Source: Blastocystis sp. Blastoise (lineage: Eukaryota; Protista; Bigyra: Opalinata). Taken from it: a stretch of 64,000 nt of DNA. Position numbers and translations under genes: made by a program. The notes under the pieces are model-generated. The model worked only from the letters and a program-made list of their open reading frames with translations, was not told the origin of the DNA and ran no database searches. Position 1 is the first letter of the stretch; every line of letters starts with the position of its first letter. Below, piece after piece: positions 1 through 64,000 of this stretch. The stretch is taken from contig JBBPEB010000003.1 in the NCBI GenBank assembly GCA_039096225.1, positions 1,054,001 to 1,118,000 of the forward strand. The letters are read 5' to 3'.

Positions 1-2869
1 TATTATGCTGAATCAGAGATGAATGAATATAATAAGATTTCTTCTTCTTTAGATCGTAATAAATTATATTATTCCCGTGATTTGATTAATTCCTATAATA
101 AAAGAAGAAATAAGAATGAATTACCTAAATTATATAAATATATTGTTAATGAAGCTATATATACAAATGATTATTCAAAAGTAGAAATAAATAAAACAAA
201 AGATGAATATGAATTAGATGATATAATCAGAATTGAATATGATCGTATATATATTTTTGAATCCTATATTTATTATTATATATAGAGAAAACGAATGATA
301 AAAGATTCATGTAAATAATATATTATTTTTTATTATACATTTTATTCTGATACATTAAATAGTATTCATGAAGTATCTTCAGAATATGGTATATCTCAAT
401 TATTACTTCTTCCTTCCTATATGTGTACTTCAAGAATCATTTTAAATGAATGTAAGTATATATGTATATATTATAAACTATATAATTTATTTTAGATTTA
501 TATGATCAAATTGATCCTATGCTTTTTATGAAATTATTTGAAGAAGGTGTTTTTGATTCTTTAACTACATTAAGTATTAGAACGAGTATTTTCATTTTGA
601 ATTATTATTATAAGTATTATAATTCTGCATAGTTAAGGAATTAACAAATCAGATTGATTTGAATCTACTTAGTAAATTAATGACAACTCATGTATTTCCT
701 AATGTTACTGAACTAATATATGATGATAATGATGGTATATATATATATATAAATATAAATATATAAATATATATATATATATATATATTATATATATATA
801 TAGAACCTTTCCAATTATCTTTAATAAAGAAAGAATGCTTCCCAAAATTACATATTATCAATTACTTCACTTTAATAGGTAAATTTATATATTAAACAAT
901 AAACTATTATTCTTAATTTAGATCTTACCAATTTAGATTTCCTATTTCCTGTGAATTTAATATCTATGATTGATACTATTCGTATATATTGGATTGAATG
1001 TAATTATGATCAAAATGAGGAAATAGTTGATTATTTAGATACTTTAGTTTATACTCATTCAATTCATATTGATATAATCGATATAGATATGTGTATTATA
1101 TATATATATATATTTACATTATATAACTGTTAGTATAGTTCATTATTTTATATACTTTTCATATAGATTATTGGATTTATTATTTTACACATTTAAATGA
1201 ATTATTAGAGAAAAATCTGATTTGCTTGGATCATCTTTCAAGTATTAAATTTTTTATCATTCTTTAAATATTATTTTTTTTATACATTTTATATTATATT
1301 CGATATAGTTGATTCTTCTCGTTATGAAAATATCGAAAATTTATATTATATTGAAGATAATAATCAAAATATTGATAGTTTAGATTTAATATTTAGTGGT
1401 ATTTTTTAATATATATAATAAATATGTTGTTGGTATTTCATAATAATACTAATATTTATTCATTTATAGATAATTATTATGATGGTGAAACTAGTGTAGA
1501 ACGATCATTAGAAATATTCTTAAAGAGTGATGTATTAAAAAATTTGAATAAATTAACTATTTCATGTATTTTTTTTTGTTTTATTATATTATTGTACGTT
1601 GTATTAATATCTATAGTTAGATATAATTTACAATATTTAACATGGATATCAACTCTTTTTAATGATAATAAGTTTAATACTATTCATGAATTAGAAATTA
1701 GTTGTATGTTATGTTATAAAACAATATATATATATATATAGTAGAGTCTATCAAAGAAGATTCATCCTCTGAATATTTAACTGCATATGAAAATATATTA
1801 ACAAAATTAATTCCTAAAGCTTCTATTATTAGAATATATAGTAATTATTTATATATACAATTATTATGTATAATAATTATTTATTTTATTAATTTTAACT
1901 ATTATTCTTATTAGGTTGCTACATGACTTTTATAAATCGATTAATTCCTAAAGGTTTCTTTCATAATACAACTGAATTAATTCTAGGTATATATCTATTA
2001 AATGAGTATAATGCTATAATTATAATATATTACATTTCATCCTAATCCTTTTATAAATATTACTTTAGATATTAACGATATACCAGATGATAATTTTTGT
2101 AAACTATATACTACAGATAATTTCCCTCAATTAAAATATATCAAGTTTTGTATATTCATTAATAATAATAGTAATATTTTATATTACGAATCATTAATAT
2201 TTATAGATAAACATGATAAAAAATGGTGGATTTCTTTTATGAAAACAATTTATACATATATTAATAGTAACTTTCCACTAGCAAGTATTGTCCGATTAGG
2301 TAGTATGTCTTAAATAGAATAATTCTATTCATATTTATAATTTTTGTTATTCTACAGACTGGGAAGGTGATAATAATTATTATTATTCACTTTATGATCC
2401 AAATACTTCAATCTTTCGATGCAAATATGATAGTTATTCATTTATGAATACTATTATTGGTACAAAAAGTATGTTTATATATATATATTAAAGTAGTATA
2501 CTTTTATTTAGATGAAGTGATAAGTAAATATGAAATAGAAATGTTATTTAATTGTATAAATGAGAATAAAACTCAAAATATAAGAAGCTTAAATTTATGT
2601 ATATTAATAATTATATTTTTTATAAGAAATTTCTTTTTTATAGATATTTATGATGAGGAACAATTATCAAAACTTACTAAATGTATTACTACTGGAAAAT
2701 TTCCTAAATTGAAAGCATTGAATTTTTGTTTAGGTATGTATATAGTTATTGAAATTAATAATATTATATAGATGATGATATTTCATCTGAACAAGCTAAT
2801 ATCTGCAAACAACAATTAAAGGATTCGCCATTTATTCAGCAGAATCATGTCGATTATAAACTTTACTAA
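1..2869 (+). CDS. Multi-exon leucine-rich-repeat-like protein, 5' end outside window (19 exons seen)
   Basis: 18 GT-AG introns splice into one open frame. Repeated units include VFPNVTELIY, CFPKLHII, VLKNLNKLTI, NFPQLKYIKF, TQNIRSLNL and KFPKLKALNF. Ends QENHV-like QQNHVDYKLY-TAA at 2867-2869. Confidence 0.75.
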
Positions 2870-4447
2870 GAATATTTAATTCTTTTGAATATATGATTAT
2901 TTATAACTTATATTATAATTGTTTTATTTATTAATTTCTTGTCATGATTATTTTTCATTTATTAACGTTATATAAAGTATATATAATACTTTACTAATAT
3001 CTCTTCGTGCTTTATTGAAAATATTAACATAGTAGTGATTAAATAAAGTAAATTTCTTATAACATATATACATGCAATATATAATAGAATACTATTTAAG
3101 GTTTATTATGAATTTAATTTTATATTATTTATGAAATTTTAATTTCTTAAATATTTCTAGAGGTTTGCAATTATTAAAACAACAGCTTTAAGAATAGTTA
3201 AAAACTGTTTTAATTTGTTTGTATATATAATAAACTAAAGTTAATAACTTTCTAGATAAACATTTTAATTAATATAATAAGATAATAAATTGTATTTTAT
3301 TTTTTTTAGTAATATTTTGTATATAACATTTTTATTCTTAAATGCCTTTGATAAATGGTATAAAATAATTACAACATATTATGTACAGAGTATATTTTTC
3401 ATTTTTTATATATATAATAGTTTATAATAAAGTATTTTTATATTTATAATTAATTAAAAATACGATAAATCTAATCACAATTATATTATTATATATTGAC
3501 AACAAATACATTTTTTAAATCAACACATTGAGAGTAATAAAATATTTTGTGACTTATTATTTAAAATTATTATATTAAAACATTTTTAAACATAGAATAT
3601 AATTTGAGAATTATGGACTGAATATATTCTAATAACGTTAAATGTAATTATTCATGTATGTCTCTACTAACTTAATATATTTGTGAAACATATTAACAAT
3701 ATACACTCATATTATCAATAAAATCTTATTGAATAAAATATCAAAATAGTGTTATTCATCATACATATAATAATATATTATTTATTTGAATATGATGACT
3801 TATAAATTTTAATCAATTGTTTTATAAAAATTTGAAATAAAATAATATAAAATAGAAATGGAAGAATAAGAAGAAGGAGATAGGAAAATAAGGAGAGCTT
3901 TTTTTGTATCAATAGGTTCTAAAATAGATTCTATTTGAGTAATAGATGCACATTTCATAGATATGATATAAAAATAAACAATTATGTATTAAATTCAGTT
4001 AGAAATCAGGAATGATTAATAGAAAAATGTTACTTTTCATTTCTATATAAACACTAATTAGCACATTATAAGTATATATATGTACATTATAAATTAAAAT
4101 AGAAATGCATATGCTTAAAATAAGAGACTTATTAATCAAAAATGTAAATTATGCAAGAGATATAAATTCATTAGACATATTATTCAGCTTGTAGTATCAT
4201 CTATATTTCTTATTAATATTCAATTATCTATTTAGAATAATAAATGAAGTGAAGATCCACAAGGAATGTTTTATTTTTAAGAACTCTTAGCAGATCTTTG
4301 TAGATCCTATTGAGTATTAATTATTTAATATACTATTAATAATTCTATATGAATAAGAATAGAGTAACGAAGAAACAAAAGAATCACATTCATGTAAAAA
4401 TAAACAGGGGAAACAGCTCAGTCAATTTAATTAGCATTATTTCGTTA

Positions 4448-63700: not shown

Positions 63701-64000
63701 GTTATTGGTTCTATATGAGGAGTTATATATATATTAGGAACAAAAGGAAGCAAAAAATCCTATAAAAAATATATAAAGTTATAAATAATAAAAATAAGCA
63801 AATATATATATATATATATTAAAAAAGATTTATAACGAATAAAAAAATATAAAAATAATTTAATAATAATTATTATATATATATATACTGCATCACCATA
63901 GAAAAATGCTTCATATTTTTCTTCTTCTTTTGACACTTTTTTATTTTTAACAATAAATATAGTACAAACATGCGTTGCATACGTTATATCTTTAGGGGAT
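60755..64000 (-). CDS. TMEM94: TMEM94 (P-type-ATPase-like ER membrane protein), 3' part; start outside window
   Basis: [64 protein letters not shown] and terminal [10 protein letters not shown] match TMEM94 motifs. Confidence 0.88.
61934..62082. repeat. (TATAT)n pentanucleotide microsatellite, intronic
   Basis: Direct reading; inside a TMEM94 intron. Confidence 0.9.
63027..63180. repeat. (ATT)n microsatellite, intronic
   Basis: Direct reading; inside a TMEM94 intron. Confidence 0.9.

What the first reader, a model, noticed from the sequence alone, without database searches (positions are those of the whole stretch)
245..63890. Introns defined by self-complementary (AT)n ends instead of a polypyrimidine tract
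Seen: a large share of the many introns start GTATATAT.. and end ..ATATATAG (e.g. 735-803 +, 13021-13056 +, 35415-35474 -, 62728-62859 -). The ends are reverse complements apart from a terminal G.G mismatch, so the pre-mRNA could zip the donor and acceptor together. These acceptors have no U/C tract and often no recognisable branch consensus, and the (AT)n tracts sit at intron ends rather than in spacers or exons. Established: teleost introns with (AC)n/(GT)n ends splice via structure with reduced U2AF2 need. Inference: a genome-wide (AU)n version, or a U2AF with altered specificity.
Basis: partly seen in the sequence, partly recalled or inferred. Interest (0 to 1): 0.78.

Follow-up and report, generated by a model that had tools for sequence, protein, structure and literature searches.

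The report
AT-repeat splice sites in tortoise Blastocystis
In this stretch of genome from a tortoise gut protist, most introns begin and end with alternating A-T runs in place of the usual splice signals, and because the two ends vary independently they are likely read as two separate signals by a retuned splicing machine rather than by pairing with each other.

Summary
The window is from Blastocystis sp. Blastoise (20% GC); four annotated proteins map onto it exactly. Of 86 introns fixed by those proteins, all start GTA and end TAG, 61 start GTATAT, 53 end TATATAG, only 3 have the usual G at +5, and there is no pyrimidine tract. The runs are in register with GT and AG, about three times above dinucleotide shuffles, and far above decoy GTA/TAG sites in spacers or on the antisense strand. 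Five introns are removed in RNA contigs of two studies. The end-zipping reading is not supported: only 22 of 86 have both 8-mers (23 expected by independence), tract lengths do not covary (rho 0.03), and folding is no more stable than shuffles. A weak excess of terminal pairing appears only in a larger, partly predicted set. Best reading: ordinary major-spliceosome introns whose donor consensus has shifted to GUAUAUAU and whose acceptor is (UA)nUAG, each read separately and lengthened by slippage. This predicts changes in U6/U1 and in U2AF65 or its substitute, which could not be tested here. New variant of a known kind; interest 0.5.

The parts
245..63888 (.). Span of the intron set: about 170 GT-AG introns in about 18 genes on both strands; donor consensus GTATAT(AT), acceptor consensus (TA)nTAG
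   Evidence: gene model; statistics
735..803 (+). Cited intron, 69 nt, nearly all AT alternation; one of the few predicted to fold end to end (5'-3' pairing 0.81)
   Evidence: model only, not RNA-checked
13021..13056 (+). Cited 36-nt intron in a TLDc-domain gene; predicted end-to-end pairing only 0.09
   Evidence: skipped in contigs of X1 and X2; fold; domain
14291..14397 (-). Kinase-gene intron with a non-alternating donor (GTAATTTT) and a TATATATAG acceptor: one tract only
   Evidence: X2 contig pieces end at 14290 and resume at 14398; sequence
14592..14648 (-). Kinase-gene intron GTATATAA..CTATATATAG
   Evidence: X1 and X2 contig pieces break at 14591/14649
14811..15106 (-). Two kinase-gene introns (14811-14889, 79 nt; 15022-15106, 85 nt) around a 132-nt exon
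   Evidence: X1 and X2 contigs each lack 164 of the 292 bases there, equal to 79+85; the inner boundaries come from the model
20338..22504 (+). HSP70-family gene, 5 introns fixed by annotated protein P0001 (WA158_008218)
28635..34666 (+). Gene of P0122 (WA158_008221), 16 introns
35415..35474 (-). Cited pure GT(AT)28AG candidate intron in a TFIIS-N (IWS1-like) gene; no sequence other than the repeat; the reading frame across it is doubtful
   Evidence: not RNA- or annotation-checked
38137..48270 (-). UBR-box gene of P0123 (WA158_008224), 42 introns
48639..55973 (-). Gene of P0121 (WA158_008225), C-terminal part Sec1/Vps45-like, 23 introns
62727..62859 (-). Cited intron, corrected end; 83-nt acceptor tract predicted to fold on itself (5'-3' pairing 0.0); a second TAG follows 3 nt on
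   Evidence: model only

Best explanation
These are GT-AG introns whose donors read GUAUAU(AU) and whose acceptors read (UA)nUAG with no pyrimidine tract, and the two ends are likely recognised separately as linear signals by a major spliceosome retuned to them, with replication slippage likely lengthening the selected cores. Donor: the consensus equals the yeast-type extended donor GUAUGUAU with +5 G replaced by A. From the recalled U1 and U6 pairing registers, +6 U, +7 A and +8 U already match both snRNAs and +4 U matches an unmethylated U6 box, so the only new position is +5; A there is predicted to be matched by a C-to-U change in the U6 ACAGAG box and/or in U1 (inferred, untested). Acceptor: UAG would be bound by U2AF35, the ten bases upstream by a divergent U2AF65 or a substitute such as SPF45, and a degenerate branch point would lie upstream of about -14 (inferred). 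Shown: consensus, register, strand specificity, independence of the ends, AG exclusion. Inferred: the readers, the snRNA change, the branch position, the role of slippage.
For: Runs are anchored in register to GT and AG and decay over about 10-16 nt. +4 T 81, +5 A 70, +5 G 3, +6 T 74, -3 C 0, -7 T 77 of 86. Extension of anchored runs exceeds that of mid-intron TA runs out to about 9 bases (donor z 8.3 and 4.6, acceptor z 8.5 and 3.2), then falls to or near background (z 1.2 and 2.4), a footprint of snRNA or U2AF size. Donors with a broken run have no excess alternation nearby (0.50 vs 0.50, 25 introns). The ends are independent: 30 both, 16 donor only, 23 acceptor only, 17 neither. No AG at -4..-13 (0 of 351 chances, 14.5 expected) but normal rates from -14 outward, as in conventional acceptor selection; C is enriched upstream of the tract. 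Introns with only one tract are removed in RNA contigs (14291-14397). The genome paper's InterPro table lists U2AF35-family (2), SF1/BBP (1), Prp8 (1), and SPF45 in all three tortoise strains and in none of five human-subtype strains (PMC10690189 supplement 7 rows); SPF45 replaces U2AF65 on human short introns with truncated pyrimidine tracts (PMC8363638 abstract). A changed U6 box has precedent in C. merolae (PMC10158995 passage).
Against: No snRNA or U2AF65 sequence of this organism was seen, so the readers are unshown. In Saccharomycotina, +4 shifts occur without any U1 or U6 change and go with METTL16 loss (PMC10581693 passages), whereas this strain has one METTL16/RlmF-family row and two SNRNP27K rows; Plasmodium also lacks +5 G (GUAANW, PMC3089446). 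Donors with G at -1 do not have significantly shorter tracts (58% vs 75% GTATAT, p 0.17). Two unrelated readers converging on the same repeat needs a coincidence that a single (AU)n-binding factor would not. In 153 introns (86 annotated plus 67 modelled) real ends pair slightly better than swapped ends (stem 5.09 vs 4.85 within genes, p 0.024). The InterPro table is noisy (zero rows for core factors in some strains). One window, four annotated genes.
Confidence: 0.6

Rival explanations
1. End-to-end zipping: the donor and acceptor (AU)n runs pair across the intron and replace the need for U2AF65, as AC/GT repeats do in teleosts.
For: Ends are reverse complements beyond the G.G pair in many introns (mean perfect stem 5.8 bp). 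11 of 86 have predicted 5'-3' pairing above 0.5. In the 153-intron set rho is 0.17 (p 0.04), and real ends beat globally swapped ends (p 0.004-0.016) and within-gene swaps for stem length (p 0.024).
Against: In the 86 annotated introns: rho 0.03 (95% interval -0.19 to 0.25), odds ratio 1.39 (0.58-3.3), real vs swapped stems 5.81 vs 5.67 (p 0.25), no excess of compensating pairs at +4..+10. In the 153 set the correlation is lost within genes (p 0.12) and after controlling for mid-intron alternation (p 0.32). MFE equals shuffles at 37 and 25 C; 47 of 86 have 5'-3' pairing under 0.1; swapping in another intron's 3' end changes nothing. 39 of 86 have one tract only. (AU)n pairs with itself and with any other tract, so it cannot specify a partner; a stem starting at +2/-2 would also bury the bases U1 and U2AF35 must read (established knowledge).
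Confidence: 0.1
2. One (AU)n-binding protein marks both intron ends and recruits or bridges U1 and U2, so the shared repeat reflects a single reader.
For: Same repeat, similar length and decay at both ends. Mid-intron sequence is also richer in AT/TA than expected (0.54 vs 0.42) while spacers are not (0.32 vs 0.33). Acceptors with a broken run keep some excess alternation nearby (0.59 vs 0.48, 19 introns).
Against: Strict register with GT and AG, and no excess beside broken donors, suit position-fixed readers. No such protein was identified.
Confidence: 0.13
3. Neutral microsatellites: only GTA and TAG are required, both contain TA, and slippage in a 20% GC genome grows (AT)n from these permanent seeds.
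For: Simple repeats are 12.7% of this genome vs 0.02-1.4% in human subtypes (supplement 5). Beyond about 9 bases extension rates approach mid-intron rates, and some tracts reach 54-83 nt. Explains the independence of the ends.
Against: The first 8 steps extend far more often than TA runs in the same introns' middles (z 3 to 8.5). Decoy GTA and TAG sites rarely carry runs. MSH2 and MLH1 rows are present. The comparison assumes that intron middles are not selected against such runs.
Confidence: 0.11
4. The acceptor run holds the branch point itself (A at about -6), as proposed for Stentor's GUAAUUUUUAUAUAG introns.
For: Same terminal UAUAUAG as the commonest Stentor intron, whose branch A is placed at position 10 of 15 (PMC9505925 passages). 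Information has a local peak at -7, and -7 is T in all 12 annotated introns lacking A at -4. Pure GT(AT)nAG candidates have nowhere else to branch.
Against: AG is excluded out to -13, which suits a branch point further upstream; C enrichment lies upstream of the run. The -7 effect is weaker in the 153 set (66% of 29). Says nothing about the donor.
Confidence: 0.06

Closest known systems
Major (U2-type) spliceosomal introns with yeast-type +4 U donors (GUAUGU)
   Same: GT-AG ends, +3 A, +4 U, +6 U, YAG acceptor, AG-free zone before the acceptor, removal from RNA.
   Different: +5 is A (70 of 86) and almost never G; no pyrimidine tract; acceptor always TAG preceded by alternating U/A; branch consensus nearly invisible.
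Teleost (AC)m-(GT)n bridged introns (Lin et al. 2016, PMC4691745; abstract and passages read)
   Same: Dinucleotide repeats concentrated near both intron ends; the 3' repeat sits where a pyrimidine tract would be.
   Different: There two different, mutually complementary repeats co-occur across the intron and make it a third more stable than shuffles. Here one self-complementary repeat overlaps the splice sites, the ends are independent, and folding equals shuffles.
Introns of AT-rich protists: Plasmodium falciparum (AR|GUAANW, YAG; PMC3089446 passages) and Stentor coeruleus (GUAAUUUUUAUAUAG; PMC9505925 passages)
   Same: Loss of +5 G, strict GUA start, no clear branch motif; Stentor shares the UAUAUAG end.
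   Different: Plasmodium has no fixed base at +5, whereas here +4..+8 is a positive UAUAU consensus. Stentor introns are 15-16 nt, these are 37-194 nt (median 70).
Human-subtype Blastocystis introns (PMC5608401, PMC10690189 passages)
   Same: Same genus, intron-rich genes, 98% GT-AG.
   Different: Mode 30 nt in genomes of 39-55% GC; their splice-site logo is a figure I could not see, so the ancestral state of these signals is unchecked.

Membership tests
Major (U2-type) spliceosomal introns | GT..AG ends | tested here: met
   86 of 86; the aligner also allowed GC donors, and AT-AC
Major (U2-type) spliceosomal introns | Removed from RNA | tested here: met
   5 introns in 11800-15250 absent from contigs of X1 and X2, one with an explicit GT..AG joint in both; contigs, not raw reads; X1 is RNA by a guess
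Major (U2-type) spliceosomal introns | Not the minor-intron donor GTATCC | tested here: met
   no GTATCC among 86 donor hexamers
Major (U2-type) spliceosomal introns | Branch site pairing with U2 | tested here: inconclusive
   CTRAY 6 of 86 vs 4 antisense; CTNAY 14 vs 6; C enriched in the 3' window, 56 vs 28, p 0.003
Major (U2-type) spliceosomal introns | Donor pairs with U1 and U6 snRNA | not testable with these tools
   no genome held; no RNA family in the window
Teleost (AC)m-(GT)n bridged introns | Complementary repeats near opposite intron ends | tested here: met
   met trivially by one self-complementary repeat, in 30 of 86 introns
Teleost (AC)m-(GT)n bridged introns | Co-occurrence across the intron above independence | tested here: not met
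   22 vs 23.0 and 30 vs 28.3 expected; rho 0.03; weak signal only in the 153 set
Teleost (AC)m-(GT)n bridged introns | More stable than dinucleotide shuffles | tested here: not met
   -11.43 vs -11.07 kcal/mol, mean z -0.2, 9 of 86 below z -2
Teleost (AC)m-(GT)n bridged introns | Structure needed in vivo; splicing without U2AF2 | not testable with these tools
   needs experiments; the InterPro table has no U2AF large-subunit row for any of its genomes, so it is uninformative
Introner / transposon-derived introns | Shared interior sequence among introns | tested here: not met
   no shared 16-mer with 3 or more G/C among 153 introns
Introner / transposon-derived introns | Target-site duplications | not tested
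   not examined once shared sequence was absent
Euglenid non-conventional introns | Non-GT-AG borders joined by stable structure | tested here: not met
   borders canonical, folding equals shuffles; family known to me from search listings only
Stentor-type tiny introns | 15-16 nt length | tested here: not met
   37-194 nt
Stentor-type tiny introns | Branch A at -6 within UAUAUAG | tested here: inconclusive
   -7 peak for, AG exclusion to -13 against

The most novel reading that the evidence does not exclude
Tortoise Blastocystis has recoded its spliceosome to read (AU)n: U6 (AUAGAG box) and/or U1 complement GUAUAUAU, the acceptor is read without a pyrimidine tract or U2AF65 (for example through SPF45), and U2 accepts a branch A inside the repeat, so that an intron made of nothing but GU(AU)nAG is excised and any long AT microsatellite bounded by G and G can become an intron.
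Probability: 0.22. Interest if true: 0.78.

Novelty: new variant of a known kind. Interest (0 to 1): 0.5.

Why it matters
The +5 G of the donor and the pyrimidine tract are among the most conserved splice signals. A lineage that has replaced both with a positive (AU)n consensus, within a genus whose other members keep 30-nt introns, is a natural experiment on how snRNAs, U2AF and splice sites co-evolve under extreme AT pressure. It gives sharp, cheap tests (U1/U6 sequence, U2AF65 and SPF45, lariats). It also matters for annotating these genomes, since the longest tracts coincide with apparent assembly errors and skipped exons. It is not evidence for a new structure-driven splicing mechanism.

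Tried and rejected
No whole genome was held, so no snRNA, U2AF or genome-wide test was possible. No tRNA or Rfam family in the window. RNA could be laid on only 3.45 kb; runs X3 and X4 laid nothing, and most joints in the TLDc gene come from paralogs. The joint giving 13185-13249 rests on one X1 contig and was not used as support. A scan of metagenome contigs for a U6 box with U in place of C gave 23 loci; all 20 that I scanned match Rfam U6. None of the 23 is AT-rich (GC 0.32-0.55) or rich in GTATATAT (at most 0.11 per kb vs 2.05 in the window), so they say nothing about this organism and may be variant copies. The four relatives found by the representative search were paralogs from the same strain, so no cross-species comparison of introns was possible. 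The exon-side compensation test was not significant. Across-exon covariation was also nil (rho 0.04). A DNA-level role (nucleosome exclusion, ApT methylation) was considered and set aside because runs are anchored to GT and AG and are strand-specific. Two look-ups of earlier findings returned nothing. Paper searches that found no description of this pattern; the library lacks most subscription journals and figures cannot be seen. Rows dropped: 9 of 29 predicted gene models (judged spurious, mostly antisense to long frames) before the 176-intron set; 21 of 88 modelled introns not starting GTA or ending TAG before the 153-intron set; for P0121 the all-GT solution was taken over an AT-AC alternative for one intron.
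Full report
Source. The window is 20.4% GC. An HSP70-family exon is 100% identical to a protein named WA158_008218 of Blastocystis sp. Blastoise, and three more exons gave WA158_008221, _008224 and _008225 at 100%. The genome paper (PMC10690189: abstract, passages, section 7, supplement 5, searched rows of supplement 7; PMC12129017: passages) reports longer, more variable introns and 11.8-12.7% simple repeats in tortoise strains, nanopore assembly with short-read polishing, and annotation that favours RNA-seq-supported introns. 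The passages I saw say nothing of intron-end sequence. No whole genome was held, so all statistics come from this window.

Defining introns without assuming the pattern. I wrote a gene model that knows only GT, AG, codon statistics and single-base intron composition; 20 of its 29 models gave 176 introns. Separately, the four annotated proteins were threaded exactly onto the DNA, fixing 86 introns. The two agree on 39 of 44 and 32 of 42 introns, so the consensus is not an artefact of a trained annotator. Contigs of two runs from two studies, laid on 11800-15250, skip 13021-13056 with GT..AG ends and break at the predicted boundaries of four kinase-gene introns. These are contigs, and X1 is RNA only by a guess.

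The observation. All 86 introns start GTA and end TAG; 61 start GTATAT, 46 GTATATAT; 53 end TATATAG, 43 ATATATAG; 22 have both 8-mers. Counts are about three times dinucleotide shuffles in the first 44 annotated and in the 176 modelled introns. Decoy GTA and TAG sites in spacers, on the antisense strand and inside introns carry runs in 3-20% of cases vs 53-62% for real sites. 79 of 105 perfect tracts of 12 nt or more touch an intron end. There is no pyrimidine tract. The branch consensus is weak, but C is enriched upstream of the acceptor run. One cited coordinate is off by one.

Testing the zipper. Lin et al. (PMC4691745, abstract and passages) define the teleost class by co-occurrence across the intron above independence and by stability a third above dinucleotide shuffles. 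In the 86 annotated introns neither holds: rho 0.03; 22 vs 23.0 expected; stems 5.81 vs 5.67 for swapped ends (p 0.25), pairs 7.45 vs 7.20 (p 0.07), duplex energy -4.73 vs -4.46 (p 0.09); MFE -11.43 vs -11.07; predicted 5'-3' pairing 0.19 vs 0.14 shuffled and 0.21 with a foreign 3' end, above 0.5 in 11 and below 0.1 in 47 of 86, the same at 25 C. Of the four cited introns, two fold end to end (0.81, 0.86) and two do not (0.09, 0.0). Against my reading: in 153 introns (86 plus 67 modelled) rho is 0.17 (p 0.04) and real ends beat swapped ends (global p 0.002-0.016; within genes p 0.024 for stem length, 0.056 for energy). The correlation is lost within genes (p 0.12) and after controlling for mid-intron alternation (p 0.32), and both ends correlate with mid-intron alternation, so a shared intron-wide tendency explains it; a small structural contribution is not excluded. 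Power is limited: the odds-ratio interval is 0.58-3.3.

Selection or slippage. Anchored runs extend more often than TA runs in the middles of the same introns: donors 211 of 236 vs 142.7 expected for the first steps and 171 of 196 vs 124.4 for steps 5-8, acceptors 199 of 227 vs 123.0 and 171 of 194 vs 136.3; beyond that 118 of 143 vs 106.9 and 109 of 135 vs 87.0. I infer a selected core of about 8-10 bases at each end, with slippage tails. Broken donors show no excess alternation nearby; broken acceptors show some (0.59 vs 0.48). AG never occurs at -4..-13 (0 of 351, 14.5 expected) and is normal from -14 outward (10 of 350, 14 of 374), the pattern of conventional acceptor selection with a branch point upstream.

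Mechanism. By the recalled pairing registers (from my own knowledge, no call), U1 reads GUAAGUAU and unmethylated U6 reads positions +4 to +8 of GUAUGUAU. The observed GUAUAUAU differs from the latter only at +5, a G-to-A change in the direction of the genome's AT bias; since A is favoured rather than tolerated, a matching C-to-U change in U6 or U1 is the simplest prediction. Precedent is mixed: C. merolae has an altered U6 box (PMC10158995 passage), but Saccharomycotina change +4 without snRNA change, with METTL16 loss (PMC10581693 passages), and this strain has a METTL16/RlmF-family row. At the acceptor, the paper's InterPro table lists U2AF35-family and SF1 proteins, has no U2AF65 row for any genome, and lists SPF45 in the three tortoise strains only among Blastocystis; SPF45 can stand in for U2AF65 on short human introns (PMC8363638 abstract). 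These are leads from a noisy table. I put this two-signal reading at 0.6, a shared (AU)n-binding protein at 0.13, neutral seeding at 0.11, zipping at 0.10 and a Stentor-like branch point in the run at 0.06.

Comparison and novelty. The introns pass the tests for major spliceosomal introns that could be run and fail two defining tests of the teleost class; they share no interior sequence, so they are not Introner-like. Loss of +5 G is known in Plasmodium (PMC3089446 passages) and a UAUAUAG end in Stentor (PMC9505925 passages). PMC5608401 (passages) gives the human-subtype logo only as a figure, which I could not see. PMC3033335, PMC13644364 and PMC12862383 (passages) added nothing decisive. Seven searches found no description of (AT)n runs in register at both intron ends. 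Verdict: observation confirmed, zipper not supported, new variant of a known kind, interest 0.5; the recoded-spliceosome case (probability 0.22) would merit 0.78.

Noticed in passing
window 49416-49493 (-): A 78-nt open, in-frame, coding-like stretch lies inside annotated intron 49368-49561, between a pure 68-nt GT(AT)n run that ends in AT rather than AG and a second GTATATAT..TATATAG intron. Probably an exon hidden by an assembly error at the end of a long tract; a GT-AT intron is the alternative.
   Followed up: partly
window 35580-35691 (-): Same situation in the IWS1-like gene: a 73-nt GT(AT)n run ends in GG before a short coding-like piece and another intron; the frame after 35415 also fits the likely C-terminus only with a one-base shift. 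Sequence beside tracts over 50 nt looks unreliable.
   Followed up: partly
window 31327-31371 (+): A 45-nt in-frame candidate exon with good AT-run sites on both sides is predicted by my model but skipped in annotated P0122; possible cassette exon.
   Followed up: no
window 13246-13249 (+) and 62724-62727 (-): Tandem TAGTAG acceptors; one X1 contig uses the distal AG at 13249.
   Followed up: partly
window 4448-5974 and 11999-13593 (+): Two paralogous TLDc-domain genes with an intron at the same place (KLLFR|ASEH); many related transcripts in X1 and X2 point to a large family.
   Followed up: no
window 48639-55973 (-): Annotated P0121 joins about 1100 low-complexity residues to a Sec1/Vps45-like part; intron 54083-54266 holds coding-like sequence, so the model may be wrong or fuse two genes.
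   Followed up: partly
window 8860-11998: About 3 kb with no gene in my model but with a few minus-strand intron-like AT runs; possibly a decayed or missed gene.
   Followed up: no
PMC10690189 supplement 7 (not in the window): SPF45 rows are 1, 2, 2 in the tortoise strains and 0 in five human-subtype strains; the U1-70K N-terminal row is 0 in all three tortoise strains.
   Followed up: no
L016:2622-2724, L017:4967-5069, L003:4588-4692: Full-length U6 matches (86-108 bits) with U in place of C in the ACAGAG box, in eukaryotic metagenome contigs of 38-51% GC; functional variants or pseudogenes, unknown.
   Followed up: partly
window 47467-47649, 51769-51892, 61923-62097 (-): Intron middles expand through other simple repeats too: (AAT)n, (TAT)n and (ATATA)n, which may account for the longer introns of this clade.
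   Followed up: no
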